This document shows positions 19,181 to 37,852 of a stretch of 64,000 nucleotides of DNA, piece after piece. Below the pieces are notes generated by a model. That model did not search any database and was not told where the DNA came from. It saw only the letters and a list, made by a program, of their open reading frames with translations. Origin of the DNA: an uncultured Bacteroidales bacterium. GTDB taxonomy: Bacteria > Bacteroidota > Bacteroidia > Bacteroidales > UBA932. Location of the stretch: assembly GCA_947179325.1 (NCBI GenBank), contig CAMXAU010000014.1, positions 1,532 through 65,531 on the forward strand, in the 5' to 3' direction. How positions within the stretch are numbered: the first letter of the stretch is position 1; the number at the start of each line of letters is the position of its first letter. The translations under genes and the position numbers were made by a program.

Positions 19181-19256
19181 TTAGGGTATTTAAAAAACTT
19201 AAGTCTTATATGCAGGAATGCGGATTTTTTCTATATGTGATTCTTTTGAATCTCCT
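19181..19256 (+). repeat. Left direct repeat of the 18.5-kb insertion (promoter plus signal-peptide-coding remnant)
   Basis: 19181-19226 matches 37718-37764 except A6 vs A7; 19227-19256 matches 37823-37852 at 29/30. Confidence 0.9.
19183..19210 (+). promoter_or_regulatory. Putative ECF-sigma promoter AGGGTA-N13-AGTCTTATA
   Basis: Same bipartite motif at 37720 (N14) and immediately upstream of the anti-sigma gene at 53174 (N15). Confidence 0.55.
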
Positions 19257-19628
19257 TATAGTCATCGGTTTGTATCCGGGGATGCCTGTGGACTTTATGT
19301 CGTGAAGGGCGAAGAGCTAATTGTGTCCAATGCTAAGTTTGAGGCTGAGGTTTCCGGTGAGGACATCAGATGGGTCCCTGCAGATGGAAGCATTGATATT
19401 GTCCATAATGAGGGCAATGTTTATTTCCTATATTATCCTCTCCATACTGTGAGGACGGCTATATGGATGGTAAGGCTGACAGGCGGTATGCCGCAAGCAG
19501 TGAACGATACAGGTATTTTTATCACTCTGGCTTTCATGGATAAGGACGTAATGGAGAAATGTCATTTATCCAACAGGCCCCCGCAATCGCCATTGTCCTT
19601 GCGGAACTTGTCCAGGTCAATCAGCATG

Positions 19629-19690
19629 ATTGAGACAATATTGCATGTTTTGAGACGAAAGTTTCAGGCTTCCGGAAATATATGTCATAA
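19629..19690 (+). promoter_or_regulatory. Conserved TGAGAY tandem motif, copy 1
   Basis: 19631-19667 is 33/38 identical to 21147-21184; followed by TGTCATAA and the -7 box TAATTTTG (19688-19695). Confidence 0.6.
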
Positions 19691-19730
19691 TTTTGCAGTC
19701 ACCAATAATATAGACACTAAAACATATCAG

Positions 19731-20174
19731 ATGAAAGGCAGTATCACATCAATAGGTGATGCCATACGGTGCAATAGGGCAGATATGGCCGTCTTGTGTC
19801 TCGTCGTACTGTATATCATATCAGCTGATGTGCATGGCAATATTGTATCTTGGGCTGTGCTTTCGGATGCTTTGCCTTATGTTCTGCTGTATGCTGTAGC
19901 CAGACTGTGCTTTTCCTTGTCCTACAGAAAGATGACGCTTTTAGTGTATGCCACTCTCTGTGTATGGACAATCTATGAATCGGTGCTGGGACTGACCCGG
20001 CTTTGGGGGATTACGGCGTCCGGACATGCAGGATTTCCTATGACAGGAACATTCTTTAATCCGGGACCTTTGGGAGGACTTGTCTCAATAGGTCTGGCGG
20101 CATCATTGGCCTATCTTTGCGGCCACAAGAAATTTATATCGGCAAAAATACCTTTTAAATGTCTATGCCGGTAA
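19731..20174 (+). pseudogene. Truncated O-antigen-ligase-like gene (N-terminal TM segment only)
   Basis: CVWTIYESVLGL...SGHAGFPMTGTFFNPGPLGG aligns with CIWGIYESALGL...SGHESFVLTGSFTNPGPYGG of 25369..27282 but stops after ~147 aa. Confidence 0.75.
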
Positions 20175-20249
20175 ATGAAAGGCGTCGCCCTATGTTGAGG
20201 ATGAAGATGGAAACAAAATAAAAACTGTCATATTTAAGAAAGGATAGCA

Positions 20250-21125
20250 ATGAATAATAGAAAGATCTATAGGATACTTGGTACTGTGGTGATGACAGTG
20301 GCAGCAATAGTGGTCCTTGCCGTTACAGTTCCGGTGTTCTTCTTTGACCAGTTCCTGATTGGCGGAAGTTCCATGGAGCCGACCTTGCATACCGGTGACC
20401 ATGTGCTTGTGAACAAACTGCTTCATGGAGCAAGAATCTACAGGACATATGATTTTTCTGTTCCTGAGATGGAATGTTTCCGTATGCCTGGCTTCAGGAA
20501 GGTGAGGCCTGGGGATATTGTCGTTTTTAACAATCCTGACGCCCATAAGGGCAAAGGGCTAAGTTTCAGGATAAATGATGTCTATGCCAAAAGATGCATA
20601 GGAAATCCTGGCGACACGGTGTCTGTGGTCAATGGCTTTTATTCCAATAGCAGCATTAAGGGGCCGATAGGTAACGTCATGAACCAGCAGGAATTGTCAG
20701 AAACGCCGGATTCTGTCTTGAATGGACATGGAGTGGTACTTAAGGCTGCCCAGTTTGCCGGACGTTATGGCAAGTGGACTATAAAGGATTTCGGACCGTT
20801 GAGGGTGCCGGCGAAAGGAGACATCGTAAAGTTGTCTTCCGGAAATGTCAGGCTATATAGTAAGATTATACGTTACGAGACCGGTATGGCTCCATCTGTA
20901 AAGGATGGTAAAGTGCTGTTTGGCGGTATCCCTGTTGATGAATACGAATTTACGCATGACTATTATTTTTTCGGGGGAGACAATGTTCTGGATTCGCGTG
21001 ACAGCCGTTATTTCGGCCTTGTTCCCGATGAATTCATAGTAGGAGTGGCAACCAGAGTGCTGTTTTCCCGTCCGGCAGCTACCGGCAAGACAGATCGGAG
21101 CAGATTCTGGAAAAAACTTCCCTGA
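20250..21125 (+). CDS. lepB: Signal peptidase I (S26), accessory long form
   Basis: N-terminal TM; catalytic Ser box GGSSMEPTL..GD; Lys box YAKRCIGNPGD; GDNVLDSRDSRYFG. Confidence 0.93.
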   Translation: MNNRKIYRILGTVVMTVAAIVVLAVTVPVFFFDQFLIGGSSMEPTLHTGDHVLVNKLLHGARIYRTYDFSVPEMECFRMPGFRKVRPGDIVVFNNPDAHKGKGLSFRINDVYAKRCIGNPGDTVSVVNGFYSNSSIKGPIGNVMNQQELSETPDSVLNGHGVVLKAAQFAGRYGKWTIKDFGPLRVPAKGDIVKLSSGNVRLYSKIIRYETGMAPSVKDGKVLFGGIPVDEYEFTHDYYFFGGDNVLDSRDSRYFGLVPDEFIVGVATRVLFSRPAATGKTDRSRFWKKLP

Positions 21126-21217: not shown

Positions 21218-23260
21218 TTGATAACCTATACCATTTTGAGACCACATAAATTAATTGCCGTAACTATAACCTTATGTGCGTTATGTTTTTCCATGCTCAG
21301 CTGTTCTGGACCTGATAGCCGTCTTGAACAGGTGCTGGCACTTGCTGGAAGCAACCGTCCGGAACTTGAAAAAGTGCTGAGGAGATATTCATCTCCTGAA
21401 GACAGCCTGAAATACCGTGCCGCAGTTTTTCTTATTGAGAACATGCCGGGATACGGGTATTATGAAGGGACGCCCCTTGACAATTTTCTTGAATATTACC
21501 CTCTGCTGCGGAGTGTCAGACTCAAGAAGCAGTCTCCTGATGTTGCAGTGGATTCCATAAACAGGAAATACGGAAAATTTGACCTCTCCGCTCTGCATTA
21601 TAAAGAGGATATCCGTACAGTCGATTCCGCATATCTCTGCAGGAATATAGAATGGGCTTTCAGGGTGTGGGAGGAACAGCCTTGGGGCAGGAATGTAGGC
21701 TTTAGGGATTTCTGTGAATATATACTTCCTTATCGTGTCGGCAATGAGACTCTTGCAGACTGGAGGGAAATGTACTATGAAAAGTATAACGGCATACTTG
21801 ACGGTCTGCGCAATTCTGGCTGTTCTGACCGTGAGGATCCTGCGGCTGCAGCCCGTATTATAACAGACTCCCTTACCGGGCCTAAGAAGATATTCTTCAC
21901 AAGTGCGGCTCCCGCAGCCCTGCCCCATATAGGGCCTGTGGCAGCCGATTACCGTAGCGGCAGCTGCCGCGATTTGGTGGACTTTGCCCTCTATGTCTGC
22001 CGTGCCTTGGGAATACCGTGTGCATCTGACTACATGCCTTTCAGAGGGGACGGGAATGTTGGGCATGAATGGGCGGCTTTTCTCGGGCGTGACAGCCTCT
22101 ACTGTCAGGATATGGGAAACCCTATGGTCAATTCAAGTAAAATCAGTACTCTCCGTAAGTTGAAAGTGTATCGCCGGACATTCAGTATAAACAACAGGCT
22201 CAATGATGTGGATATACCTGATTCTGACAGGCCTGAATTCCTGAAAAGACCATGTTTCGAAGATGTGACGCCGGCCTATGCCATAGATTTCCTGAAGACG
22301 CTTAAAGTCCCTGTAACTGAACTCTACAGTGGACTCAAGCCGAAGACGGTCTGTCTGTGCATGAGCAGCCGCTTTTCATGGGTTCCGGTAGCTGTCGGAA
22401 AGTTCTGCCGGGGTAATGCGGAGTTTGAGGATATAGACTGCAATACTCAGGTTATGAGGGTGGCTTCTGTCAAGGACGGCAAGGTCATGTTCCTGAGTGA
22501 CCCGTTCTATGTAAAGGAATCCGGCGACCTGCATTTCTACCGTGCCGGCAAAGAACTTCGGGACATTACGGTGTTCCGTAAGTTTCCTGAGCTTCAAGAG
22601 TTGTGGCTTCAGAGGCGTATGCTTGGTGGCGTCTTTGAGGGAAGCAACAGTCCGGATTTCACAATGAAAGATACGCTTCATATTATTACAGAACTTCCTA
22701 AGCGCCTTCTTGTCCCGGCCCGACCCCGGAAATCCGGCCCTTATCGGTATGTGCGGTATTTCGGTCCGAGGAACGGCTTCTGTAACATTGCTGACATGTA
22801 TGTCTACGGAGCAGACGGGGAACTGCTGACCGGAAAGCCTATAGGTGTTCCTGGCAGCTATAGTGGTGACAATAAGTACGACTATTGGAGTGCATTGGAT
22901 GGAAACGGTGAGACTTCATTTGATTCACGCACATCGTATGGGGCATGGGTGGGGCTTGATTTGGGCAAGCCAAAAGAGATTGGCAGGATTGTCTACACAG
23001 CAAGGAATCGGGACAATCATGTGCGCCCTGGAGACGAGTACGAACTGTTCTATTGTGACGGGAACTGGAAGTCTGCCGGAAGGGTAACGGCATCATCTGA
23101 TTCGATTCTTTACAAAGGCATTCCCAAAGGGGCACTCTATATTCTTGATAATCTTACTCGTGGTACTCAGATAAGAGTATTTTCATACGATGAAGGTGTT
23201 CAGGAATGGTTAAGACCACGTCAACAAGAGAATTTAGCCATTCAAAATGGCAATATTTAA
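21218..23260 (+). CDS. Transglutaminase-like domain lipoprotein with C-terminal F5/8 type C (discoidin) domains
   Basis: Lipobox MLSC; FCEYILPYR, GSCRD (Cys), RALGIP, GHEW (His); discoidin-like ALDGN...WVGLDLGKPKEI. Confidence 0.82.
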   Translation: MITYTILRPHKLIAVTITLCALCFSMLSCSGPDSRLEQVLALAGSNRPELEKVLRRYSSPEDSLKYRAAVFLIENMPGYGYYEGTPLDNFLEYYPLLRSVRLKKQSPDVAVDSINRKYGKFDLSALHYKEDIRTVDSAYLCRNIEWAFRVWEEQPWGRNVGFRDFCEYILPYRVGNETLADWREMYYEKYNGILDGLRNSGCSDREDPAAAARIITDSLTGPKKIFFTSAAPAALPHIGPVAADYRSGSCRDLVDFALYVCRALGIPCASDYMPFRGDGNVGHEWAAFLGRDSLYCQDMGNPMVNSSKISTLRKLKVYRRTFSINNRLNDVDIPDSDRPEFLKRPCFEDVTPAYAIDFLKTLKVPVTELYSGLKPKTVCLCMSSRFSWVPVAVGKFCRGNAEFEDIDCNTQVMRVASVKDGKVMFLSDPFYVKESGDLHFYRAGKELRDITVFRKFPELQELWLQRRMLGGVFEGSNSPDFTMKDTLHIITELPKRLLVPARPRKSGPYRYVRYFGPRNGFCNIADMYVYGADGELLTGKPIGVPGSYSGDNKYDYWSALDGNGETSFDSRTSYGAWVGLDLGKPKEIGRIVYTARNRDNHVRPGDEYELFYCDGNWKSAGRVTASSDSILYKGIPKGALYILDNLTRGTQIRVFSYDEGVQEWLRPRQQENLAIQNGNI

Positions 23261-23288
23261 TATTGTTAACTTTAAAATTTATCTTATT

Positions 23289-23657
23289 ATGAGAAAATTT
23301 TTTGTTTTATTGGCAGGAATGGTTCTATTCCTTGCTTCCTCTTTAACTTTCATTTATGTGAAAGGAGAAAATGATTCTGTGAACGATTTACTGTCAGCAA
23401 ATGTAGATGCTTTGGCGGATAATGAATCAAGTGGAGGGCTTGATGCAAATTATCACCGGATTGACTCCAAGTGTGAAGTCTTTGTATCTGCAGGAATGCA
23501 AATCGATATCTTTGGAATAGGAATAATAACTGCCAAAGCTGATGGTAAAATTGCTATTGATGGAAAGGTTGTCTGTCAATCTAAAGGTAATGAGACATGC
23601 CGTCCTGTCGAATGCTCTGATCTGTATAGTGTCATATTGCATGGAGGAGAGCGATGA
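23289..23657 (+). CDS. NVEALA-family secreted Cys-rich peptide (122 aa; NVDALA variant)
   Basis: Basic N-terminus, hydrophobic helix, polar spacer, LLSANVDALA (aa 34-43), then 79 aa with C62, C96, C104, C109. ATG at 23289 within ORF 23247. Confidence 0.8.
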   Translation: MRKFFVLLAGMVLFLASSLTFIYVKGENDSVNDLLSANVDALADNESSGGLDANYHRIDSKCEVFVSAGMQIDIFGIGIITAKADGKIAIDGKVVCQSKGNETCRPVECSDLYSVILHGGER

Positions 23658-24778
23658 GAAAATTTCCATATTTTTCTTTTGTACTTAGTCTGGTTGTCAT
23701 ATCATGTGTCAGCCAGACCAAGAATGAACCTAATGTTCAGGGGATATCTGTTGACATAAACAAACAGGCTGATATCAGCGAGTTCGTATCCTCGTTTGAC
23801 GGTTATGTCTGTCTTGAAACATACGAAGAATGCCTTGTCAATGAAATCCGGAAACTGAAGATGGTTGGTGATACTATTTATGTTGCCGATGATACTAAGA
23901 TTACGATGTTCAGTCGCAGGGATGGTTCTTATCTCGGCAAGATTCATAAGCATGGCCGGGGGCCTGGAGAATACATTACATTAACTGATTTTGATGTATT
24001 TGACTCCAGATTGTATGTGTTGTCGAATGTAGATCGCGAGATTATTATGTACAATGCCTCCGGTGATGTTCTGAGAATTATCAATACCGGTGAAGGATTC
24101 AGCAACTTGTCGGTGATAGACGAAGACAATATCTGGCTTTATTCTTCTGACAGCAATGACAGTATGTACAACTTCATTCTGATTGGTCCGGATGCCGATG
24201 TGAAAGCAAAGTACGACAAATTTTCTAAGAATCAGAGTTATACAATTGAAGACATTACATTCTGCGGTTCTGTTTCGGATACGTTGTATGTCTCCCAATA
24301 TTATGACAACATCGTGTATTCCTTGCATTATGACGGTTATGTTCCGTTATACCGTTTTGATATGAACCTCCGGAACACTGTGTCTCAGGAGGAGCTGTCG
24401 GCAACACCTTTAAGTGAACTGCACAAGACTTATAAATATAAGGAATCATTTCGTAGTATAATGCATATTGACAGAAACAGGCACACGTTATTTGCTGAAA
24501 CATGGTGCTTTCTTGACGGTCTGGCATTGAAGACCTGTTTTGTCAAAGCCGACATGGTGACCGGAAAATCTCATTTTTATATCTGCGGTTACGATGTTGA
24601 TGAGCGATTCCCATTGTTTGATCTATCTGACGTGATAGGGTACGACGGTAAGGTATTGATTTCATATCTTACTGCATTCTCAGCTAAAAAACATGGGAAA
24701 AAATATAAGATAGGCAATCTCGCTGACATATCCGAATACGACAATCCAGTCATCGTCTTTCACACTTTAAATTATTAA
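23654..24778 (+). CDS. 6-bladed beta-propeller lipoprotein, copy 1
   Basis: Lipobox VISC; LET..ECLV..I, GRGPGEY motif, C-terminal DNPVIVF; 4-nt overlap with the peptide gene. Confidence 0.85.
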   Translation: MRKFPYFSFVLSLVVISCVSQTKNEPNVQGISVDINKQADISEFVSSFDGYVCLETYEECLVNEIRKLKMVGDTIYVADDTKITMFSRRDGSYLGKIHKHGRGPGEYITLTDFDVFDSRLYVLSNVDREIIMYNASGDVLRIINTGEGFSNLSVIDEDNIWLYSSDSNDSMYNFILIGPDADVKAKYDKFSKNQSYTIEDITFCGSVSDTLYVSQYYDNIVYSLHYDGYVPLYRFDMNLRNTVSQEELSATPLSELHKTYKYKESFRSIMHIDRNRHTLFAETWCFLDGLALKTCFVKADMVTGKSHFYICGYDVDERFPLFDLSDVIGYDGKVLISYLTAFSAKKHGKKYKIGNLADISEYDNPVIVFHTLNY

Positions 24779-24781
24779 GCG

Positions 24782-25363
24782 GTGAACAGGTATCTATTCG
24801 GAATCCTTATTATGTTATCGTCTTTGTCGGTTTCTTGCTCGAACAGCCAAAATGATATGAAAGATGCTATTGTGGCATTTCGTCAGAAGCAGATAATATT
24901 ACCGGAAGAACTTGTCAAAGTGGAAAACAGGAATATATCGAAGAGTATATTGGAGCAGGCTGAGGTAAAGATGGTCATTTACTATGACTCTTTGGAGTGC
25001 AGCTCCTGTAAAGTCTCCCATCTGAAAGAGATGCAATATCTTTATGAACTTTCTGACAAGTTACCTATGTTAGAGGTTTATACGATTTTTTCTCCCTTGC
25101 AGCAGGAATATGACCAGACTATGGTAGATCTGATGATGTTAAATTTCCCATATCCGATATATGTAGACAATACTTGTTCTTTTGAAAAGAATAATCCTGA
25201 TTTTCCTGAAGACAAACGCTTTCATAGTTTTCTTTTGGATAAAACCGGACATCCGGTTTTTGTCGGTAACCCGACAGCAAGCGATAAGCTTTGGGACCTG
25301 TTCCTGAAAGTTATGGATAACCTTCAGGAAAATGATGGAGTCTATATAGATGTTTTGAAATAA
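24782..25363 (+). CDS. Thioredoxin-like lipoprotein with CxxC
   Basis: Lipobox SVSC; YYDSLECSSC; FLLDK...VFVGNP; GTG start. Confidence 0.7.
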   Translation: MNRYLFGILIMLSSLSVSCSNSQNDMKDAIVAFRQKQIILPEELVKVENRNISKSILEQAEVKMVIYYDSLECSSCKVSHLKEMQYLYELSDKLPMLEVYTIFSPLQQEYDQTMVDLMMLNFPYPIYVDNTCSFEKNNPDFPEDKRFHSFLLDKTGHPVFVGNPTASDKLWDLFLKVMDNLQENDGVYIDVLK

Positions 25364-25368: not shown

Positions 25369-27282
25369 TTGAGACAATTTAAAAACATAATTCTATTGAT
25401 TGTATGGACGGTTGCGGCTGTTGCAATTGTCCATACAATTATTCTCGTGTCTAAGCCTGTAGAATTAATGCATTATACTACTGCAGGCCTATTGGTGTGT
25501 GCTACATCTCTGTTTATACCGACTATAATAATATTAGTGGTAGAACAGAAAGTTATACAATGGAACATAGTGGATATAGTTCTCGTCTGTCTGGTGATTC
25601 TTTATTGTATATCAGCATCAGTGAATAATCAACGTATTTCAATCTTTTGGATGCAGGAATTCTTTCCGTATGCTATCATGTATATATCCTTTAAGGTTCT
25701 TTTCGGCATAAAGAAAAGATTGGTAAGCTGGTTTGTATTTATCATATTTTGTATTTGGGGAATTTATGAAAGTGCTTTAGGATTGGGACAGATTTTCGGC
25801 AGTGTACCTTCTGGACATGAATCTTTTGTATTGACAGGCAGTTTTACTAATCCGGGACCATACGGAGGATTTATAGCTTTTCTTATGACTGTTTTGGTCG
25901 GATACTTGATTGAATATGGGAAATGTGTCAATGTTATATGTCGGCCTGTTATTGACGGGATGCGTACTATTGGATTAAAACGATTAACCAGTAGCCGCTA
26001 TGCCGCATGGTGTATATTCAGGTTATTGCCTATAATTTTAGCTGCTATTGCTGTGATTTTATGCATTGTAGTGTTTCCTGCCTCAATGAGCCGTGCTGGT
26101 TGGTTGGCATTTGCTTGTGGCTTAATGCTTTGTCTTATACGTGAAACAGGAATTATCAAGTCTGTATTAAGTCATAAAGCAATATCTGCCATTATGTTGA
26201 TTACCATATTGTCTGCTGTCGCGACGATATTCATGATGAAGAAAGATTCAGCAATCGGAAGATTCCATATCTGGAATATGGAGGCAAAGGCAATAATTGA
26301 AACTCCGTTTATCGGTACTGGACCAGGTGCTGTTCTTGGGCAATACGCAAAGATTCAAGAAAATTATTTTAAGGAAAACGAGTGTTCACAAAAAACTGTA
26401 AATGTTGCAGGTGCACCATCGTATGCATTCAACGAATATCTTAAAATAGGTATGGAGACAGGAATTGCAGGCACATTACTGGCTTTATGTGTCGTTGTTC
26501 TTGCAATTATACAGCTTTTACGCTCGAATGATATATTCGGTTATGGGCTTGTAGCAATAGCGGTTTTTGCATTTTTTTCTTATCCTTTAAGTGTAGCACA
26601 GTTTTCTATATGTATAGTTGCAATGCTTGCATTGTCAAGTTGCCATGATTCTGAAGTGCTTAAGTTACAAAAGAAAAAGAATACATATGTATTGTGCAAT
26701 TCATTGTTGACGATTTTTGTCATTGGTCTTGTGCTATTTGGAATAACTGATTTATATAAAGTTTATAAATCACGGGAAAAGGCATCTGATGATTGGCGGA
26801 TGGCAAGGCAATGGACTCTTATGAAAAAATATGATTGTGCTGCAGAAGAACTTGAGACATTATATCCGTACCTATTCTGGAGTTATCAGTATCTTTACGA
26901 ATATGGATACGCTTTGCATAGGGCTGGTATGTATGAAAAAAGCAATGTAATCTTTACTGAAGGCACTTTGATATCCGCAGATCCAATGTTTCATAACATG
27001 ATAGGGAAAAATTATATGGAAATGGGTTCTTATGATTATGCGGAAAAGGAGTTAATTAAGTCGCATTATACTGTTCCATGTCGTCTATATCCATTGGTCT
27101 TGCTTATGGAAATGTATATGGACATCAATTTGACAGAAAAGGCTAAAGAAGTAGGTGATAAAGTCTTGAATATGAAGATAAATAAAAAGAATGGAACTAT
27201 GATAGAACTTAGAAGGCGTGCAGAAGAATGTTTAAAGATTTTGAAACATGATGTTAATGAAATTAATGGCATTTCCAATTGA
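25369..27282 (+). CDS. O-antigen-ligase-like (Wzy_C) polytopic membrane protein with C-terminal TPR
   Basis: Many TM helices; SRAGWLA, DSAIGRFHIW, PFIGTGPG, AFNEYL; TPR-like YEYGYAL...NMIGKNY...AEKEL. Confidence 0.85.
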   Translation: MRQFKNIILLIVWTVAAVAIVHTIILVSKPVELMHYTTAGLLVCATSLFIPTIIILVVEQKVIQWNIVDIVLVCLVILYCISASVNNQRISIFWMQEFFPYAIMYISFKVLFGIKKRLVSWFVFIIFCIWGIYESALGLGQIFGSVPSGHESFVLTGSFTNPGPYGGFIAFLMTVLVGYLIEYGKCVNVICRPVIDGMRTIGLKRLTSSRYAAWCIFRLLPIILAAIAVILCIVVFPASMSRAGWLAFACGLMLCLIRETGIIKSVLSHKAISAIMLITILSAVATIFMMKKDSAIGRFHIWNMEAKAIIETPFIGTGPGAVLGQYAKIQENYFKENECSQKTVNVAGAPSYAFNEYLKIGMETGIAGTLLALCVVVLAIIQLLRSNDIFGYGLVAIAVFAFFSYPLSVAQFSICIVAMLALSSCHDSEVLKLQKKKNTYVLCNSLLTIFVIGLVLFGITDLYKVYKSREKASDDWRMARQWTLMKKYDCAAEELETLYPYLFWSYQYLYEYGYALHRAGMYEKSNVIFTEGTLISADPMFHNMIGKNYMEMGSYDYAEKELIKSHYTVPCRLYPLVLLMEMYMDINLTEKAKEVGDKVLNMKINKKNGTMIELRRRAEECLKILKHDVNEINGISN

Positions 27283-27465
27283 GACGAATACGAACTGTTC
27301 TATTGCGATGGTAACTGGAAATCGGCCGGCACTCTCTATATCCTGAACAATCTTACGCGCGGTAAAGACATAAGAGTGTTTTCCTGCGATGAAGGTGTGC
27401 AGGAATGGGACCGTCCGAAACGTAAAGAAAATCTACCATTGTATTATGATATTATTCATATTTAA
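27283..27465 (+). pseudogene. 3' remnant of a second transglutaminase-discoidin gene
   Basis: DEYELFYCDGNWKSAG-TLYILNNLTRGKDIRVFSCDEGVQEW versus DEYELFYCDGNWKSAG[17 aa]ALYILDNLTRGTQIRVFSYDEGVQEW at the end of 21218..23260. Confidence 0.9.
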
Positions 27466-27477
27466 ACTAAGTGAACA

Positions 27478-28671: not shown

Positions 28672-28808
28672 TTTGCGAACAGAAAAGACTCAATCATCAC
28701 TGGTTAGTGCATATGACTGTCCTTACTTTGGCCGTGGGCGATTGTGATAAGATTGCATACGGTGCCAATTCAAACTGATTTAAGGGTAATGCGTTGATAT
28801 ATAATATT

Positions 28809-30317: not shown

Positions 30318-30321
30318 TAGG

Positions 30322-31407: not shown

Positions 31408-31409
31408 CT

Positions 31410-34400
31410 ATGCTGAACAGACTGATAGACCGCCCTATAAGTGTCACGATGGTCCTCCTCGTGGTGCTTGTGCTTGGAATCACAGCAATCCGTCTTCTCC
31501 CTGTGTCCCTGATTCCTGATGTGGATGTGCCTTATATTACGGTTCAGGTGACAGCTCCGGACCTTTCCGCGCGGGAGATAGACGAGACCATCCTCAAGCC
31601 GCTCAGGCAGCAGCTTGTGCAGGTCGGTTCTCTTGAAGATGTAAGGAGCGAGGCTAAAGACGGAAGCGGTACCGTTGCCCTGACCTTCTCTCAAGGTGCT
31701 GACATGGATTATCTCTTTATCGAGGTCAACGAGAAAATTGACAGGTGCATGTCATCGTTCCGGGATGTGGAGAGGCCGAAAGTCCTCAAGTCCGGTGCTG
31801 CTGATATTCCGGCTTTCTATGTCAACATCACCCTCCGGGATGAAACGGTCCTGCCGGATGAGACTGATAGGGGACTGTTTCCGGTGTCCCAGTCGTTTCT
31901 TGACATGAGTTGTTTCGCTTCAGATGTAGTGGCCAAGAGGATTGAGCAGCTTAAGGAGGTCGCAATGGTTGACCTGAGCGGTGGTGTGCGTCCGGAGCTT
32001 CTGATTATCCCTGACAGGGATGCGCTGAAGAGATTGGGCATGACGGAGTCTGGTTTTGAGAATGTAGTCAAGGCTGCCGATATCCGCCTTGGCAGTCTGA
32101 CTATAAGGGACGGGGAGTACCGCTATAATGTGAAGTTCCGCTCTTTTGCTTCAGACAGGTCCGATATAGAGGACCTTTATCTGGAAGTTGGCGGTAAGGT
32201 GATGCAGGTCAAGGATATTGCCCGTGTGATAGAGCATCCTTCCAAGAGGACAGGGCTGGTGATGTCCGACGGCAGGGATGCTGTGACCATGGCAGTGATA
32301 AAGCAGAGCAGCGCCAGGATGGCAGAACTGAAGAAGGCTATGAACAGTCTGATGAAGCAGTTCCGCCGTGACTATCCTGAAATGGAGTTTACCGTGACGC
32401 GTGACCAGACAGAGCTTCTGGAATATTCCATTGACAATCTGATTCAGAATATAGTAGTGGGTATCCTGCTGGCCTGTCTGATAATTTTCCTTTTCATGAA
32501 GGATTTCAGGTCTCCTATGCTGGTGGTTTTCACCATTCCTGCCGCACTGGTGTTCTCGATGCTTGTCTTCTACGTGATAGGATTGACCATCAATATCATA
32601 TCACTTTCCGGCCTTGTGCTTGGAGTGGGAATGATGGTGGACAATACCATAGTGCTTATAGACAATATCACGGCACGGTGGCAGAGGGGAGAACAGCTGC
32701 GCCGTGCAGTTGTGAAAGGTACATCGGAAGTGCTTGCTCCTATGCTGAGTTCCATGCTCACTACATGTGCAGTATTCATCCCGCTGATTTTTATGAGCGG
32801 TATAGCCGGAGCCATGTTCTATGACCAGGCTATGGCAATAACAGTGGTGCTTGCCACATCGTATGTGGTGACTGTGACTGTCGTGCCTGTATATTACTGG
32901 TGGTGGTACCACAGATCCGATGCTTTTGTGCCGAACCGCTTTCTTGAACGGCTGTCTTCCGGGAAGGGTGTACTTATGTATGAAAAGGGTGTGGAATGGC
33001 TCGTGAGGCGAAGATTGGTCTGCTGGGGAGTCCTTGCGGTGTCGGTTGCCGGCATCATCGTGTGTTTTTCATATATGCCCAAGGAGAAGCTTCCCGAAGT
33101 TACCTACACGGACACTTTGTTGAAAATCAACTGGAACAGCCAGCTTGCGCTTGACAGGAATACAGAGCGTGTCAGACGTCTGGACTCTTTGGCGAAAGGC
33201 TACTCCATGCAGTCCACTGCGCTTGTGGGGATGCAGCAGTTTGTCCTCGGCCATAGCGGGGACCAGTCTGTTTCAGAGACTACGGTCTATCTTAAGGCTC
33301 ACGATGCCCATAGCCTTGGCAGGCTTAAGGATGAGATTTCTACATTTCTTATGAAGGAATATCCCGACTGCATATATTCCTTTGAGTCTTCGGGCAATAT
33401 TTTCGACATGGTCTTTTCCGAAAAGGAACCTGAACTTCTTGCGCGTTTCCGTCCTGTGTCTCTTCCGGAGCTTGATGTGGAGTCCATTCAGGGGCTGACT
33501 TCAGACCTTGCACGTAGTCTTCCATATCTGCATATACCTCCGGTCCCTCTCAAGACAGATGTCCTGTATGTCGCAGATCCTCAGGTGATGGCGCTTTACG
33601 GTGTGTCATACTCCCAGCTTGCAGGGGTTCTGAAGAATGCCCTCAATGAGAACCGTCTGTTCAATATTGTCCAGGGGGACAGGACATTGCCTGTAGTCAT
33701 GGGTGTTGACACAAGGGAGATGGACGATATTGTCCGGAACACCTTCCTGTATCGTGACGGTGCCGGACTGCCGGTGAGTGCTTTTATGAAGCAGACATAC
33801 GAAGAGGACCTCAAGAGTATAGTTTCCGGGGTGGAGGGCAGCTACTATCCTCTTCCGCTTGACCTCCCTGACAGCGATGTCTCCAGTGTCATGGATGACA
33901 TCCGCGAAGTGACATACAGGAACGGGAATTTCGATGTAAGCTTTACTGGGTCATATTTCAGCAGCAGGAAGATGGTCAGGGAACTTGCTCTTGTGCTTAT
34001 TGTGGCTGTAGTCCTTCTTTACCTCATACTTGCCTCTCAGTTCGAGTCCCTTGTCCAGCCTCTGATAATCCTGTCAGAAATTGTGATAGACATTTTTGTC
34101 TCACTTGCCGTGCTCTGGCTCTGTGGCGCATCCGTCAATCTCATGTCAATGATAGGCCTTGTGGTCGTGTGTGGCATCGTCATCAATGATTCCATCCTTA
34201 AGATTGACACCATCAACAGGCTGCGGCGTTCCGGAACGGGACTCTACCATGCCATTCTTCTCGGGGGGCAAAGAAGGCTGAAGGCTATAGTCATGACTTC
34301 ATTGACTACAATCCTTGCGGTATGTCCGTTTCTTGTCCGGGGTAATATGGGGGCGGACCTCCAGTATCCTATGTCACTTGTCATCATTGCGGGAATGATA

Positions 34401-34469
34401 ACAGGTACTGCTGTCAGTCTCTTCTTTGTGCCGATTGTCTATTATGAAATATACAGGAAGAGGAAATGA
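31410..34469 (+). CDS. RND transporter permease, subunit 1
   Basis: LIDRPISV start, LPVSLIPDVD, GMMVDNTIV, LASQFES, RRLKAIVMTSLTT. Confidence 0.92.
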   Translation: MLNRLIDRPISVTMVLLVVLVLGITAIRLLPVSLIPDVDVPYITVQVTAPDLSAREIDETILKPLRQQLVQVGSLEDVRSEAKDGSGTVALTFSQGADMDYLFIEVNEKIDRCMSSFRDVERPKVLKSGAADIPAFYVNITLRDETVLPDETDRGLFPVSQSFLDMSCFASDVVAKRIEQLKEVAMVDLSGGVRPELLIIPDRDALKRLGMTESGFENVVKAADIRLGSLTIRDGEYRYNVKFRSFASDRSDIEDLYLEVGGKVMQVKDIARVIEHPSKRTGLVMSDGRDAVTMAVIKQSSARMAELKKAMNSLMKQFRRDYPEMEFTVTRDQTELLEYSIDNLIQNIVVGILLACLIIFLFMKDFRSPMLVVFTIPAALVFSMLVFYVIGLTINIISLSGLVLGVGMMVDNTIVLIDNITARWQRGEQLRRAVVKGTSEVLAPMLSSMLTTCAVFIPLIFMSGIAGAMFYDQAMAITVVLATSYVVTVTVVPVYYWWWYHRSDAFVPNRFLERLSSGKGVLMYEKGVEWLVRRRLVCWGVLAVSVAGIIVCFSYMPKEKLPEVTYTDTLLKINWNSQLALDRNTERVRRLDSLAKGYSMQSTALVGMQQFVLGHSGDQSVSETTVYLKAHDAHSLGRLKDEISTFLMKEYPDCIYSFESSGNIFDMVFSEKEPELLARFRPVSLPELDVESIQGLTSDLARSLPYLHIPPVPLKTDVLYVADPQVMALYGVSYSQLAGVLKNALNENRLFNIVQGDRTLPVVMGVDTREMDDIVRNTFLYRDGAGLPVSAFMKQTYEEDLKSIVSGVEGSYYPLPLDLPDSDVSSVMDDIREVTYRNGNFDVSFTGSYFSSRKMVRELALVLIVAVVLLYLILASQFESLVQPLIILSEIVIDIFVSLAVLWLCGASVNLMSMIGLVVVCGIVINDSILKIDTINRLRRSGTGLYHAILLGGQRRLKAIVMTSLTTILAVCPFLVRGNMGADLQYPMSLVIIAGMITGTAVSLFFVPIVYYEIYRKRK

Positions 34470-37400
34470 AAGTGAACAGCGGCATAAGGATTCCTTCGTT
34501 TTCGGTCCTGCTCATCACTGCGGTGATTGCGGTGCTTGGCATTGCATCTGTACCAATGCTCAATGTCCGCTACACTCCGGAACAGGCCGGGAATACAATC
34601 AGCGTCTCGTTTTCGTGGAACGGTGTCTCCGCAAGGATAATGGAGGCGGAGGTTACATCCAGGATTGAGGGTGTGCTTTCCGGTATCAGGGACAACAGCG
34701 GTGTCAGTTCCACATCTGACCGCGGAAAGGGAAGCGTACGGGTCAAGTTCAGGAAAGGTACGGATATGGCTGCCGCCCGTTTTGAGGTGGCGTCACGTAT
34801 CAGGAACATATATCCAAAGCTTCCGGAAGGTGTCAGCTATCCGGCCATTTCTCTTGGTACAAGAGGGACAGGGGGCACTACGGCGGTGACATTTGTCCTG
34901 AAGGCGGACATTCCCTCCAAGGAGATAGAGAAATTTGTGACTGCAAGGCTGATGACACCGTTGTCACGTATAGATGGTGTGGAGAAAGTCTCTTTCTGGG
35001 GGGCATCGCCTTTCGAATGGGTGGTGACCTTCGACATGCACAAGGCCGATGCTGTAGGGGTGGATGCAGATGCCATAGCTTCTGCGTTCAACTACTGGTT
35101 TGGTGCAGAGATGATAGGGATGGCAAGTACGGATGACGGGATGGTGAGTGTAAAGCTTGCATGCATGTCGGGTGAGGACTTCGGTGATATTCCGATTGTC
35201 AACAGAAACGGCAGGATTGTGTATCTGAGGGAAATTGCTGATTTCCGCTATCAGGAGTCGCTGCCGAGTTCATATCACAGGATCAACGGTCTGAACACCA
35301 TAAACCTTTCCGTGTCAGTGGAACCGGAGACCAACCTTCTGCGGATGTCGTCTGAAATAAGGTCGACGATGAGCGGGCTGGAGGCGTCTTTTCCGGAAGA
35401 GATAACAGTATCTGTCAGTCATGATGCATCAGAATACATTGCAAAGGAGCTTGACAGGATATATTTCAGGACTTTTCTGTGTCTCCTTGTCCTTCTTGTA
35501 TTTGTGTTCCTTGTCAGCCGCTCCTGGCGATACCTGTTCGTGATAGCCCTTACCCTTGTCGCGGACATACTCGCGGCGATAGTGCTCTATAACCTGCTTG
35601 ACATAACCGTGCATATCTATACGCTTGCCGGAATAACAGTCTCCCTCGGTATCATGATAGATACAGCGATAGTGATGGCGGACCATTATTCATACTGCCG
35701 GAACCGTTCAGTCTTTCCTGCTCTTCTCGGTGCGACGGGCACTACGGTGGGTGCGCTTTGCGTAATACTTCTTCTCCCGGAGCAGGACAGGAAGAACCTC
35801 ACTGACTTTGCATGGATCATCATGGTCAACCTGTCAGTTTCCTTGATTACTGCATATCTCTTCATTCCTTCGCTGATAGACAGATATCCGTTAAGGAGAT
35901 CGGCGTACAGCCTTTCTCTGAAAAGGCGCAGGAGAATAATCAGGTGGAACAGACGGTATCAGGCTTTCATAGAGGCATGCCTTCGCCGCAGATGGGTGTT
36001 GGCCGTTGTACTTGTGGCTTCTTTCGGCATTCCTACCTGCCTTCTGCCCGAGAAGCTCGGTTCCAGAAACCCTGACCGGATGCAGAAGGTCTACAATGGG
36101 ATTATGGGGTGGCCTCCGTATGCCGACAACCGGAAAGATGTTGACGGGATTCTCGGCACTTCGTTCGCCATGTTCAGCAAGGCTATGGACCGTTCTGACT
36201 TTTATCGTGAGCCGGGACGCCAGTCCCTGCAGATAGATGCAGCAATGCCTGAGGGATGTACGGTCGGCCAGCTCAACGAAGTGGTCAGGAGCATGGAGAA
36301 CTATCTCTGCAAGTTCGGGCAGATTGAAATGTTCACTACGGATGTCAAAAGTTATGACAACGCATCCATCTCCGTCAGCTTCAGGCCGGAATATGAAAAT
36401 ACCTCCTTTCCAGCGGAACTCAAGTCCCAGGTGATATCAATGGCAAACAATTTCGGCGGGGCCACATGGCGGGTCTATGGGGTGAACAACAATTATTTCA
36501 GCAATAATGTCCGTTCTGATTATAAGTCATATACAATCTCGCTTAAAGGGTACAATTATGATGAACTTGTCAGCTATGCTGACACTCTGATGGATATCCT
36601 TTCAGTTAACCGGCGAGTGTCCGAACTGGAGTTTGTAACTCCTTCCGGACGGCTTCCGGTCAATGAGTACAACATGGAATATGATTTCGGGAAAATGTCG
36701 GTATCCGGAGTAAATCCTTATAGATACTACCAGAAGCTGTCTACAGTTCTGTATCAGCGTAACCTTGTTTCAGTGGTGGAGGACGGGGAGATGACGTCCG
36801 TGGTCCTGAAATCTTCAGAGTCGGAGAATTTTGACTATTGGCATGTCGTGAACTCGCAGGTTAGGGTAGATTCCACATATGCGAGGCTGTCTGAACTCGG
36901 GTCGGTGGAGAAAAGAAGGACCGGCTTCCCGATAGTGAGGAACAACCAGTCCTACGAGGTGAAGGTGGGATTCAACTTCATAGGTTCTTATGAACTTTCC
37001 AATTCTTTGATAAGCAAGACTGTAAAATATATGAATGATGAAGTCCTTCCTGTTGGCTATAAGGCGTCTTCACGTGGATGGGGAGTATGGTCTCAGGAAA
37101 AGAAAGGCAAATATGGAAAGCTGATTCTGCTTGTGGCGGCAATAATCTTTGTGATGTGCGCTACGGTCTTCAATTCTTTGAGGCTTCCTTTTGCTGTTAT
37201 TCTCATGATACCCGTGTCTTTCATCGGGGTTTTCCTTGCGTTCGGGCTGTCGGACTTCACTTTTGATCAGGGTGGCTTTGCGGCTTTTGTCATGTTGAGC
37301 GGAGTGGTGGTCAATGCGGGGATCTATCTTGTGGACACTTTCCGGAAAGACAGGAGCGGACGTAGTGATGTAAGGAGATATATCAGGGCATTCAATCATA

Positions 37401-37600
37401 AGATAAACCCGATTATGCTTACTGTCATTTCCACAGTCCTTGGTCTGCTTCCGTTCCTTTCGGATGGCCCGGAGGAGGTGTTCTGGTTTGCATTTGCGGT
37501 GGGCACCATTTCCGGAATGCTGTTTTCTCTCATTGCCCTTGTGGTCTATCTTCCGGTCTTCTGCCTTGCCAGGCCCTCGGGAAAAGGCAAACGTGGATAA
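34466..37600 (+). CDS. RND transporter permease, subunit 2
   Basis: AcrB-like topology, GIMIDTAIV, PIMLTVIST; 4-nt overlap with subunit 1. Confidence 0.9.
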   Translation: MKVNSGIRIPSFSVLLITAVIAVLGIASVPMLNVRYTPEQAGNTISVSFSWNGVSARIMEAEVTSRIEGVLSGIRDNSGVSSTSDRGKGSVRVKFRKGTDMAAARFEVASRIRNIYPKLPEGVSYPAISLGTRGTGGTTAVTFVLKADIPSKEIEKFVTARLMTPLSRIDGVEKVSFWGASPFEWVVTFDMHKADAVGVDADAIASAFNYWFGAEMIGMASTDDGMVSVKLACMSGEDFGDIPIVNRNGRIVYLREIADFRYQESLPSSYHRINGLNTINLSVSVEPETNLLRMSSEIRSTMSGLEASFPEEITVSVSHDASEYIAKELDRIYFRTFLCLLVLLVFVFLVSRSWRYLFVIALTLVADILAAIVLYNLLDITVHIYTLAGITVSLGIMIDTAIVMADHYSYCRNRSVFPALLGATGTTVGALCVILLLPEQDRKNLTDFAWIIMVNLSVSLITAYLFIPSLIDRYPLRRSAYSLSLKRRRRIIRWNRRYQAFIEACLRRRWVLAVVLVASFGIPTCLLPEKLGSRNPDRMQKVYNGIMGWPPYADNRKDVDGILGTSFAMFSKAMDRSDFYREPGRQSLQIDAAMPEGCTVGQLNEVVRSMENYLCKFGQIEMFTTDVKSYDNASISVSFRPEYENTSFPAELKSQVISMANNFGGATWRVYGVNNNYFSNNVRSDYKSYTISLKGYNYDELVSYADTLMDILSVNRRVSELEFVTPSGRLPVNEYNMEYDFGKMSVSGVNPYRYYQKLSTVLYQRNLVSVVEDGEMTSVVLKSSESENFDYWHVVNSQVRVDSTYARLSELGSVEKRRTGFPIVRNNQSYEVKVGFNFIGSYELSNSLISKTVKYMNDEVLPVGYKASSRGWGVWSQEKKGKYGKLILLVAAIIFVMCATVFNSLRLPFAVILMIPVSFIGVFLAFGLSDFTFDQGGFAAFVMLSGVVVNAGIYLVDTFRKDRSGRSDVRRYIRAFNHKINPIMLTVISTVLGLLPFLSDGPEEVFWFAFAVGTISGMLFSLIALVVYLPVFCLARPSGKGKRG

Positions 37601-37645
37601 TATGATGAATTGAGACAGGATTACATATTTATGCACCGGATTTCA

Positions 37646-37697
37646 TCTGCGTGCAGGGCTTCATGAACCATTTGAGCCCTGCACGCAGAATTTTTTT
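37646..37697 (+). terminator. Intrinsic terminator after the RND operon
   Basis: 15-bp stem TCTGCGTGCAGGGCT / AGCCCTGCACGCAGA followed by ATTTTTTT. Confidence 0.88.
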
Positions 37698-37717
37698 AAT
37701 AAAGTTTGTAAATATGT

Positions 37718-37852
37718 TTAGGGTATTTAAAAAAACTTAAGTCTTATATGCAGGAATGCGGATTCTGGTTGAGCCGCGTCTATTGATGTAACACTAAACT
37801 TTCTGTTGATGAAAACAAGTCATTTTCTGTATGTGATTCTTTTGAATCTCCT
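37718..37852 (+). repeat. Right direct repeat (intact ECF-type promoter and start of the phosphoesterase gene)
   Basis: Matches 19181-19256, plus 58 bp (37765-37822, containing the start codon) that the left copy lacks. Confidence 0.9.

What the first reader, a model, noticed from the sequence alone, without database searches (positions are those of the whole stretch)
19181..37852. 18.5-kb insertion bounded by a duplicated promoter and gene 5' end
Seen: 19181-19256 is a copy of 37718-37852 (46/47-bp block differing only by A6 vs A7, plus a 29/30-bp block) lacking 58 bp that hold the start codon. The duplicated part encodes FLYVILLNLL of the phosphoesterase signal peptide. Inference: Campbell-type integration into the 5' end of the phosphoesterase gene, with the right copy restoring the gene and the left copy decaying. 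No integrase is visible, so the element may be trans-mobilised, recombination-derived or fixed. The repeats could also allow excision.
Basis: partly seen in the sequence, partly recalled or inferred. Interest (0 to 1): 0.72.

Follow-up and report, generated by a model that had tools for sequence, protein, structure and literature searches.

The report
Recombination-built island duplicating a promoter
An 18.5-kb imported gene cluster (an efflux pump plus uncharacterised peptide and cell-surface genes) sits inside the promoter and first 15 codons of a gut bacterium's phosphoesterase gene; it was put there by short-homology recombination, not by a mobile-element enzyme, and that is why the promoter and gene start now occur twice.

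Summary
The repeat is real. 19181-19256 equals 37718-37852 minus 58 bp that hold the start codon. Independent assemblies from other samples carry the same joints.

A sister species (L016/L012) has both flanks adjacent, with 118 bp where the window has 18.7 kb. So the cluster is an insertion.

It is not an integrase element:
- There is no recombinase, transposase, relaxase, tRNA or terminal inverted repeat.
- The left joint is a 9-nt microhomology (GAATCTCCT). It links codon 15 of the phosphoesterase to an internal fragment of a fimbrillin-like gene.
- The right joint lies in the 11-nt box TTAGGGTATTT, which is conserved in every orthologous promoter.
- About 95 bp left of that box (terminator hairpin included) match, at 94-96%, the phosphoesterase upstream region of another species whose coding sequence is only 79% identical.

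The two joints are crossed by 135 bp, and this duplicated the target. That is Campbell-type topology without a site-specific recombinase.

The cargo is a patchwork, and near-identical copies (96-97%) lie in other contexts in rat and bovine gut metagenomes. The left copy later lost 58 bp.

No empty allele was found within the species, and excision could not be tested. This is an ordinary but well-resolved case of island acquisition.

The parts
18746..19033 (-). 95-aa conserved small protein gene, the left flank anchor
   Evidence: 94% aa / 92% nt identity to L016/L012, where it lies divergently about 200 bp from the phosphoesterase.
19034..19180 (.). Ancestral intergenic DNA left of the left copy
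   Evidence: 19034-19092 aligns with L016 by blastn. 19109-19141 aligns weakly but above shuffles (score 25 vs 15.5 +/- 2.7; 1 of 300 shuffles). Conspecific L003-5 share it up to 19123 only.
19181..19256 (+). Left copy: promoter box plus remnant of the phosphoesterase 5' end (codons 6-15), lacking 58 bp that hold the RBS and start codon
   Evidence: It sits at the orthologous distance from the 95-aa gene, as in L016. It shares the lineage-specific 'GCAGGAATGCGGATT' with the right copy.
19182..19210 (+). Conserved promoter-like box TAGGGTATTT-N-AGTCTTATA (left copy)
   Evidence: Present about 70 nt before the ATG of every phosphoesterase orthologue examined. Only two matches in the window.
19248..19256 (+). 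Left joint: 9-nt microhomology GAATCTCCT, shared by phosphoesterase codons 12-15 and the fimbrillin-like gene Z
   Evidence: Contigs from four metagenomes and L108 all start matching exactly at 19248. Upstream of that point they read ..GAGCAGGAG.
19248..19491 (+). Internal fragment (about aa 66-146) of a 565-aa fimbrillin-like (Mfa_like_1) lipoprotein gene 'Z'; a pseudogene with a 5-nt frameshift at 19436
   Evidence: P0241: 86% aa over 65 residues. L108: 87.7% nt. Differences from relatives fall on third codon positions, and the relatives continue differently after 19491.
19563..19700 (+). Copy of a multi-copy intergenic element (ATTGAGACAATATTGCATGTTTTGAGACGAAAGTT...)
   Evidence: Family D9; alignment A3; depth peak of 2-5x in four metagenomes.
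19758..20226 (+). Remnant of a Wzy_C-type (O-antigen-ligase-like) gene with a 1123-bp internal deletion at 20157/20158
   Evidence: 36% aa identity to residues 61-185 of the intact Wzy_C gene at 25369. Relatives carry 1123 extra nt at 20157/20158. 20165-20226 aligns (77% nt) with the 3' end of a 126-aa ORF just upstream of the S26 gene in L026; that this ORF is a Wzy C-terminal remnant is inferred.
20250..21125 (+). S26 signal-peptidase-I-like gene
   Evidence: Pfam PF10502 2.5e-28; TIGR02227. Sits next to the RND operon in L026.
21293..23260 (+). 655/680-aa protein with weak transglutaminase-core and F5/8 type C matches
   Evidence: all matches below Pfam gathering score.
23247..25363 (+). 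NVEALA-like small protein, DUF5128 six-bladed propeller 1, and a 193-aa protein
   Evidence: GC 36-39% against about 50% for the surrounding genome.
25369..27282 (+). Intact Wzy_C-family membrane protein (637 aa)
   Evidence: PF04932 1.3e-18.
27281..28643 (+). Internal duplicate of 23031-24816: a 3' fragment of the 680-aa gene plus propeller 2, with the NVEALA gene lost
   Evidence: Families D1-D4 and D7, 75-88% identity. Absent from L025.
28794..37600 (+). RND efflux operon: outer-membrane factor, membrane-fusion protein and two RND pumps
   Evidence: Pfam. 28821-37585 recurs as a unit at 96.5% in L027 (AbiE context), 91% in L025 (GH115 context) and 76% in L026.
37609..37630 (+). Truncated copy of the intergenic element; the end of cluster-derived DNA
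   Evidence: A relative (X11) matches to 37630 and then continues with the native element, TTGAGACGATTTT.
37624..37717 (+). Phosphoesterase-upstream DNA of the L011/L017-type species, with a terminator hairpin at 37646-37689 followed by a T-run
   Evidence: 96% identity (4 differences in 105) to an X10 contig that runs into the L017-type promoter. 94% to L011, although the coding DNA is only 79% identical. Hairpin dG -32 kcal/mol, z -6.4.
37718..37852 (+). Right copy: full promoter box, 5'UTR, start codon and first 15 codons of the phosphoesterase
37809..38942 (+). Metallophosphoesterase (purple-acid-phosphatase-like), the first gene of a GH20-GH109-SusC/SusD locus with an ECF sigma/anti-sigma pair

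Best explanation
Ancestral state. The 95-aa gene and the phosphoesterase (PE) utilisation locus were divergent neighbours. About 200 bp lay between them, holding the PE promoter.

The insertion. An 18.46-kb stretch of foreign DNA (19257-37717) entered by recombination that needed no site-specific recombinase.
- Its left end, an internal piece of a fimbrillin-like gene, joined PE codon 15 through a 9-nt microhomology (GAATCTCCT).
- Its right end was PE-upstream DNA of another species. It joined in the 11-nt promoter box TTAGGGTATTT, which all PE promoters share.
- On the target, the left joint lies 135 bp downstream of the right joint. The joints are therefore crossed ('ends-in', Campbell topology), and the 135 bp between them (promoter, 5'UTR and 15 codons) ended up on both sides of the insert.

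Possible routes. The same product can arise from a single crossover of a circularised fragment, from gap repair of an ends-in fragment, or from a replicative template switch. The data do not separate these.

Afterwards.
- The right copy kept PE working.
- The left copy lost 58 bp, including the start codon.
- The left part of the insert decayed: a frameshift in the fimbrillin fragment and a 1123-bp deletion in a Wzy gene.

Shown versus inferred.
- Shown: insertion relative to the sister species, both joint sequences, the foreign origin of the pieces, and the absence of mobility genes.
- Inferred: that both joints formed in one event, the physical form of the intermediate, and that the left promoter copy still fires into the cluster.
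For: Empty site.
- L016 is colinear with the window on both sides: HTCS 75%, 95-aa gene 92%, PE locus 78% nt.
- L016 9862-9980 (118 bp) stands where the window has 19092-37788.
- L012 has the same geometry.

Left context. The left copy sits in ancestral context.

Left joint.
- Homology to gene Z starts exactly at 19248 in X9, X10, X11, X15 and L108.
- It overlaps PE homology by 9 nt.
- Z is a 565-aa Mfa-like protein.

Right side.
- Cluster homology stops at 37585-37630 in L025, L026, L027 and X9-X15.
- 37624-37728 is 94-96% identical to the L017-type PE upstream. Similarity ends at the box.

The two copies.
- They share a lineage-specific 5'UTR insertion, so both derive from this lineage's own promoter.
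- They differ at only 2 of 77 positions.

No mobility apparatus. There is no recombinase, transposase or relaxase among the 12 genes that fill the insert. There is no tRNA and no terminal inverted repeat.

Foreignness of the cargo.
- GC drops to 36-39% at 23-29 kb.
- Copies 96-97% identical occur in rat and bovine gut metagenomes that lack the flanks.
- The same RND operon lies in three other contexts.

Precedent. In E. coli conjugation crosses, most integrants of DNA with one homologous end were single crossovers of circularised molecules. These duplicated 109-950 bp of the target (PMC3240628).
Against: - No empty-site allele was found within the species. The conspecific alternative (L003-5) joins the left flank at 19123 to a different locus.
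- No donor genome was seen in which the pieces are contiguous.
- The fimbrillin fragment is 88-90% identical to relatives while the cluster is 96-97% identical. The insert also has further internal joints: 19491/19563, 20157/20158 and about 37630. It may therefore have been assembled in several steps rather than one.
- The first ~700 bp of PE are only 72-85% identical to conspecific L015, against 96-100% further on. Additional recombination at this locus is therefore certain, and part of the right side could be donor-derived.
- Identities of 9 and 11 nt are short. The 7-nt overlap at 37624-37630 is AT-rich.
Confidence: 0.55

Rival explanations
1. Homology-facilitated illegitimate recombination of linear DNA from a close relative. 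That donor already had cluster-hairpin-promoter-PE. One crossover was homologous, inside the PE locus at about 38.5 kb. The other was the illegitimate 9-nt joint at codon 15. The left copy is then the recipient's promoter and the right copy the donor's.
For: A 9-nt microhomology is typical of such joints (3-10 bp; PMC3240628). PE 37867-38467 is 72-85% identical to conspecific L015, then 96-100% from about 38560, as expected for a donor tract that ends there. One of the two differences between the copies (A at 19233 vs G at 37829) matches L016/L012 on the left and L015/L022 on the right.
Against: This kind of recombination normally deletes recipient DNA rather than duplicating it. The two copies share the same lineage-specific 5'UTR insertion and are 97% identical, so the donor would have to be nearly the same strain. 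No genome with the required donor arrangement was found. L015's own promoter is very different from the left copy.
Confidence: 0.2
2. An integrative mobilisable element that uses an integrase supplied in trans. The 76/135-bp repeats would be attL/attR, and the element would carry a replacement promoter and 5' gene end.
For: Direct repeats flank an insert that is foreign by GC content and by distribution. Parts of the cluster occur in several genomic contexts.
Against: There is no integrase, excisionase, relaxase or tRNA target. In other genomes the units that recur are sub-modules with different ends (28821-37585; 19563-21125), never 19257-37717 as a whole. The left end is an internal gene fragment joined by microhomology. 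The right end is another species' PE-upstream DNA. None of the other contexts shows the repeat.
Confidence: 0.06
3. The cluster is ancestral at this place, and the L016/L012 lineage lost it by recombination between the direct repeats.
For: Direct repeats with about 35 nt of exact identity could support rare deletion. Only one outgroup lineage shows the empty state.
Against: The origin of the repeat would still need explaining. The insert has foreign GC and near-identical copies in unrelated contexts. The gene-fragment joints mark it as incoming DNA. The L016 intergenic region shows no scar of the lineage-specific 5'UTR insertion.
Confidence: 0.04
4. Assembly artefact: the repeat caused a chimeric join in the metagenome-assembled genome.
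For: k=31 contigs break in the repeat.
Against: Both joints recur, base for base, in independent SPAdes and MEGAHIT assemblies of other samples. Depth is even across the joints.
Confidence: 0.01

Closest known systems
Single-crossover integrants of circularised incoming DNA that duplicate the target (E. coli conjugation assay, PMC3240628)
   Same: A direct duplication of 109-950 bp of the homologous locus flanks the inserted DNA. One joint is illegitimate. No site-specific recombinase is involved.
   Different: Here it is a natural event in a gut Bacteroidales genome. The cargo is 18.5 kb. The shared segment is only 135 bp, and one boundary is set by an 11-nt promoter box. The intermediate was not observed.
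Homology-facilitated illegitimate recombination (Acinetobacter, S. pneumoniae, P. stutzeri; refs 41, 42 and 47 in PMC5361080; proposed for V. cholerae T6SS effector/immunity arrays)
   Same: Foreign DNA is trapped next to a conserved anchor. The illegitimate joint has 3-10 bp of microhomology. An orphaned remnant of the resident gene is left behind.
   Different: The classical outcome is a deletion of recipient DNA, whereas here the target is duplicated. The 'anchor' may be as short as the promoter box.
Integrase-type genomic islands and integrative mobilisable elements of Bacteroidales (NBU-type elements and conjugative transposons; own knowledge)
   Same: Foreign cargo is flanked by direct repeats, and the target gene is restored on one side.
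   Different: There is no integrase, mobilisation gene or oriT. The ends are gene fragments, and the unit as a whole does not recur elsewhere.
Microhomology-mediated template switching (MMBIR/FoSTeS-type insertions with flanking duplication; own knowledge, mainly from eukaryotes)
   Same: Several short segments are strung together through 7-11-nt identities. Returning upstream of the point of departure gives a duplication.
   Different: It is not established for 18-kb interspecies insertions in bacteria, and it cannot be told apart here from sequential events.

Membership tests
Integrase-mediated integrative element (island, IME or ICE) | Site-specific recombinase gene (tyrosine or serine type) in or next to the element | tested here: not met
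   Pfam and NCBIfam scans of all 12 genes that fill 19218-37600, and of the flanking genes, found none.
Integrase-mediated integrative element (island, IME or ICE) | Defined att repeats at the ends of a unit that recurs as a whole | tested here: not met
   Repeats exist. However, relatives share only sub-modules with other end points, and the repeat borders coincide with a microhomology and a promoter box.
Integrase-mediated integrative element (island, IME or ICE) | Excision to a circle and an empty site in the population | not testable with these tools
   Only k=31 Logan contigs were available, and these break in the 35-nt repeat. No raw-read runs were listed.
Transposon / insertion sequence | Transposase, terminal inverted repeats and a short target-site duplication | tested here: not met
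   No transposase. No inverted repeat pairs the two ends. The duplication is 76/135 bp.
Campbell-topology (ends-in / single-crossover) recombinational insertion | Direct duplication of a target segment on both sides of the insert, with each copy in native context on its outer side | tested here: met
   The left copy adjoins ancestral intergenic DNA, and the right copy adjoins the PE gene.
Campbell-topology (ends-in / single-crossover) recombinational insertion | An uninterrupted target exists in relatives | tested here: met
   Met in the sister species L016/L012. Not found within the species.
Homology-facilitated illegitimate recombination | Illegitimate joint with 3-10 bp of microhomology | tested here: met
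   GAATCTCCT, 9 nt.
Homology-facilitated illegitimate recombination | Deletion of recipient DNA between the anchor and the illegitimate joint | tested here: not met
   The target is duplicated, not deleted.
Tripartite RND efflux operon (cargo) | Outer-membrane factor, membrane-fusion protein and RND pump genes in one operon | tested here: met
   PF02321, HlyD-family models, and PF00873 twice.
Polysaccharide utilisation locus with ECF sigma/anti-sigma control (target locus) | SusC/SusD pair(s), glycoside hydrolases, an ECF sigma factor and a FecR-type anti-sigma factor | tested here: met
   GH20, GH109, SusC/SusD, GH31, Sigma70_r2/r4, FecR and a 1167-aa SusC-like TonB-dependent receptor, longer than the 992-aa SusC.

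The most novel reading that the evidence does not exclude
The whole mosaic was laid down in one replicative, multi-template-switch event using 7-11-nt identities. The mosaic runs: phosphoesterase codon 15, then a 244-bp fimbrillin fragment, then a Wzy/S26 block, then the NVEALA/propeller block, then the RND operon, then about 95 bp of another species' promoter-upstream DNA, and back to the resident promoter box. By duplicating the ECF-type promoter, the event placed an imported export module under the glycan-responsive control of the utilisation locus.
Probability: 0.1. Interest if true: 0.6.

Novelty: new member of a known kind. Interest (0 to 1): 0.33.

Why it matters
It is a clean natural example of how gut Bacteroidales acquire a large gene cluster without any mobile-element machinery. 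Both joints are resolved to the nucleotide, and the donor-type sequences are identified.

It shows that a conserved promoter box can act as a recombination anchor between species that are only 79% identical. It also shows that the 5' edge of a polysaccharide utilisation locus is a rearrangement hotspot: six different upstream neighbours were seen among relatives.

It flags an uncharacterised module (S26 peptidase / NVEALA / propeller / Wzy with an RND pump) that circulates at 96-97% identity among gut communities of different hosts.

It does not reveal a new kind of system.

Tried and rejected
- The genome-contig scan with the phosphoesterase gave only two loci. Both were useful, but there was no conspecific among them.
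- The word-indexed protein search with the 19248-19568 translation found nothing. The exhaustive HMMER search was needed to identify gene Z.
- Literature searches for 'NVEALA' returned nothing.
- Rfam found nothing in the window at gathering thresholds, and nothing in 19000-21400 at E <= 1. No tRNA was found.
- The sigma-70 promoter scan is uninformative for Bacteroidales.
- Logan contigs cannot test for empty-site or circle junctions, because unitigs break in the 35-nt exact repeat.
- Apparent 'joints' 19697->37609 and 21185->19248 in X9 are explained by the multi-copy intergenic element and by the element lying upstream of gene Z. They are not excision products.
- I first took 37600-37717 to be the cluster's own terminator. 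That was rejected because cluster relatives diverge at 37585-37630 and the stretch matches the L017-type phosphoesterase upstream.
- The idea that the fimbrillin gene is natively next to the cluster was not supported. In L108 it sits in a GH88/SusCD context.
- Among 80 metagenome loci with a homologue of the 95-aa gene, only the L016 contig has the phosphoesterase next to it.
Full report
**1. The observation**

Reading both ends and running repeat finder confirm two matching blocks:
- 19181-19226 equals 37718-37764, except for A6 vs A7.
- 19227-19256 equals 37823-37852, at 29/30.

The right copy has 58 extra bp (37765-37822) that hold the TTG/ATG start (37806/37809) of a metallophosphoesterase (PE). 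Both copies read FLYVILLNLL in the signal-peptide frame.

The 318-codon ORF that starts at 19218 is in another frame. It is a read-through of gene debris.

The box TTAGGGTATTT and the two-part pattern TAGGGTRTTT-N10-16-AGTCTTRTA occur only at these two places in 64 kb.

The window is contig JAIDOH010000012.1 of GCA_029063375.1. The same left joint, with the 58-bp gap, is present in independent assemblies L006 and L008. The same right copy is present in L013. Mis-assembly is therefore excluded.

**2. Gene map**

Left flank:
- a heparinase-type utilisation locus
- a hybrid two-component regulator (14332-18360, minus strand)
- a 110-aa gene and a 95-aa gene (18746-19033, minus strand)

Between the repeats, all on the plus strand:
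- gene debris (19257-20226)
- an S26 signal peptidase
- a 655/680-aa protein with weak transglutaminase and F5/8-C matches
- an NVEALA-like peptide
- a DUF5128 propeller
- a 193-aa protein
- a Wzy_C protein
- a second propeller
- an RND operon: outer-membrane factor, fusion protein and two pumps

Right flank: PE, GH20, GH109, SusC/SusD, DUF4874/4832, GH31, an ECF sigma factor, a FecR anti-sigma factor and a second SusC/SusD pair.

GC is about 50% overall but 36-39% at 23-29 kb. No recombinase, transposase, relaxase or tRNA is present. No inverted repeat pairs the two ends.

**3. It is an insertion**

L016 (GCA_011262095.1; PE 79% aa) is colinear with the window on both sides:
- regulator, 75% nt
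- 95-aa gene plus 59 bp, 92% nt
- PE locus, 78% nt

Just 118 bp (L016 9862-9980) stand where the window has 19092-37788. L012 has the same geometry.

The window DNA left of the left copy aligns with the L016 intergenic region:
- by blastn to 19092
- weakly but above shuffles to 19141

The left copy lies at the orthologous distance from the 95-aa gene. The left copy is therefore the resident promoter in place.

Among 80 metagenome loci that hold a homologue of the 95-aa gene, only the L016 contig has PE next to it. The adjacency is thus specific to this small clade.

The upstream neighbour of PE differs in every other relative:
- Schlafen/GH130 in L011 and L017
- DUF4249 in L015
- DPP-IV in L022
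- ribosomal genes in L024

Conspecific L003-5 join the left flank at 19123 to yet another locus. This edge is a rearrangement hotspot.

No empty allele was found within the species.

**4. The left joint**

Contigs of four unrelated gut metagenomes (X9, X10, X11 rat, X15 bovine) match 19248-19491 at 88-90% inside long contigs. All of them start matching exactly at 19248 and are preceded by ..GAGCAGGAG. They continue differently after 19491. Their differences from the window fall on third codon positions.

The exhaustive protein search identifies the source as a 565-aa fimbrillin-like (Mfa_like_1) lipoprotein, gene Z, residues 67-131. L108 gives the DNA.
- Z reads GAG|GAATCTCCT|TAT.
- PE reads TTTT|GAATCTCCT|GCC.

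The joint is a 9-nt microhomology at 19248-19256. The chance of 9 or more shared nucleotides at a random joint is about 4e-6.

The fragment carries a 5-nt frameshift at 19436. In L108, gene Z sits in a GH88/SusCD context and not next to the cluster.

**5. The rest of the left end is debris**

- 19563-19700 is a copy of a multi-copy intergenic element. It is also found at 21140, truncated at 37609, after the RND operon in L025, and at the end of L108.
- 19758-20226 is a Wzy_C gene remnant. Residues 181-305 of the ORF match residues 61-185 of the intact paralogue. Relatives have 1123 more nt at 20157/20158.
- L006 and X2 carry a further frameshift at 19557.

**6. The right end**

Cluster relatives stop matching the window at these positions:
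- 37566-37585 in L025, L026, L027, X9 and X15
- 37630 in X10 and X11; X11 then continues with the native element, TTGAGACGATTTT

From 37624 to 37728 the window is 96% identical (4 differences in 105) to an X10 contig that runs into the L017-type PE promoter. L011, L017, X9, X11 and X15 share 37664-37728 at 94%, broken on the left by a Schlafen gene.

PE coding DNA of that species is only 79% identical to the window. Similarity stops right after TTAGGGTATTT.

This stretch contains a strong hairpin (37646-37689; -32 kcal/mol; z -6.4) followed by a T-run. It now serves as the terminator of the RND operon.

So the last ~95 bp of the insert are PE-upstream DNA of another species, and the right joint lies in the 11-nt box. 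That box is conserved about 70 nt before the ATG in every orthologue. The overlap between the truncated element and this stretch is about 7 nt (CATATTT). It is AT-rich and therefore weak evidence.

**7. The two copies**

Both share 'GCAGGAATGCGGATT'. This is the start of a ~33-nt 5'UTR insertion that no other species has. They differ at only 2 of 77 positions. Both therefore descend from this lineage's own promoter.

The 58-bp gap is a later deletion in the left copy.

**8. Mechanism**

On the uninterrupted target, the right joint (the box, about -90) lies 135 bp upstream of the left joint (codon 15). The joints are crossed, and this topology duplicates the segment between them.

The same product can arise in three ways:
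- a single crossover of a circularised fragment
- gap repair of an ends-in fragment
- a replicative template switch

In E. coli conjugation experiments, most integrants of DNA with one homologous end were such single crossovers. They duplicated 109-950 bp (PMC3240628).

Classical homology-facilitated illegitimate recombination shares the microhomology but usually deletes recipient DNA. It remains a rival because PE 37867-38467 is only 72-85% identical to conspecific L015, against 96-100% beyond about 38560. A donor tract could end there.

Two observations argue that the insert was assembled in more than one step:
- The fimbrillin fragment is 88-90% identical to relatives, while the cluster is 96-97% identical.
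- The insert has extra internal joints.

**9. The cargo**

- The RND operon (28821-37585) recurs as a unit at 96.5% next to AbiE genes (L027), at 91% next to GH115 (L025) and at 76% after an S26 peptidase (L026).
- Propeller - 193-aa protein - Wzy precede it in L025.
- 27291-28820 is a window-specific internal duplication.
- In X9, X10, X11 and X15, the depths of the cluster, of gene Z and of the L017-type PE contig co-vary: about 6, 7, 13-14 and 7-8.5. This hints that one organism carries all three donor-type pieces. Four samples are not proof.
- The function is unknown. Peptidase, small peptide, propellers, a Wzy-type membrane protein and an RND exporter together suggest processing and export of a peptide or surface component. 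That is inference only.

**10. Function of the left copy**

It keeps the full conserved box. The downstream locus has an ECF sigma/anti-sigma pair, so the box may be an ECF-type promoter (inference). If active, it would transcribe into about 1 kb of debris and then the S26 gene. No suitable RNA data were available. X9 is labelled 'RNA?' and holds cluster relatives, but it comes from another organism.

**11. Verdict**

- The insertion and the Campbell-type topology are supported.
- The mobile-element reading is not supported.
- This is a recombination-built, fixed island: a new member of a known kind, with modest interest.

Noticed in passing
window 20250-37600; L025, L026, L027: A recurring, uncharacterised module combines an S26 peptidase, an NVEALA peptide, DUF5128 propellers and a Wzy_C protein with an RND efflux operon. 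It occurs in different genomic contexts. Copies 96-97% identical are present in rat and bovine gut metagenomes that lack this genome's flanks. No paper in the library mentions NVEALA.
   Followed up: partly
window 23031-24816 vs 27281-28643: An internal duplication (75-88% identity) covers the 3' end of the 680-aa gene plus the propeller. The second copy has lost the NVEALA gene. Strain L006 still has an NVEALA gene there, and L025 lacks 27291-28820 altogether.
   Followed up: partly
window 18746-19033 (-): The 95-aa protein with no family match is far more conserved than its neighbours: 92% nt and 94% aa to L016, against 75-78% nt for adjacent genes. Homologues occur in at least 80 metagenome contigs with varied neighbours.
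   Followed up: partly
window 19563-19700, 21140-21260, 37609-37630; L025 12351-12462; L108 14485-14524: A multi-copy intergenic element (ATTGAGACAATATTGCATGTTTTGAGACGAAAGTTGCAG...) precedes several genes. Its depth is 2-5x that of neighbouring DNA in four metagenomes. There is no Rfam match. It is possibly a promoter/leader cassette and a recombination substrate.
   Followed up: partly
window 37809-39167 vs L015: The phosphoesterase gene is a mosaic. It is 72-85% identical to conspecific L015 up to about 38470 and 96-100% from about 39170. A second low-identity patch (54-63%) lies at 38867-39167, at the PE/GH20 boundary.
   Followed up: partly
window 19123/19124; L003-L005: Conspecific strains (98.2% identical in the left flank) switch at 19123 to a different locus: a BACON protein, a second hybrid two-component regulator and a GH116-like protein. 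That locus is absent from the window.
   Followed up: partly
window 37751-37785: A lineage-specific insertion of about 33 nt lies in the phosphoesterase 5'UTR, between the promoter box and GTAACACTAAAC. It creates a 12-codon upstream ORF from ATG 37748. In the left copy the 58-bp deletion fuses that ATG in frame to the signal-peptide remnant, giving a 31-codon ORF from 19210.
   Followed up: no
L011 3139-3186; L017: In the L011/L017 species a Schlafen/AlbA_2 ATPase gene abuts the phosphoesterase promoter. The breakpoint lies inside the loop of the terminator hairpin. An X10 strain keeps the whole hairpin.
   Followed up: partly
L012 7990-8850: An array of about 176-bp tandem repeats (AAAATAGTGCTGTTTGGCACGC...) lies between a sulfatase gene and the 95-aa gene.
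   Followed up: no
window 52589-57738: An ECF sigma factor, a FecR anti-sigma factor and an unusually long (1167-aa) SusC-like TonB-dependent receptor lie downstream of the phosphoesterase locus. The box TAGGGTATTT-N-AGTCTTATA, conserved in all orthologous promoters, may be its target.
   Followed up: no
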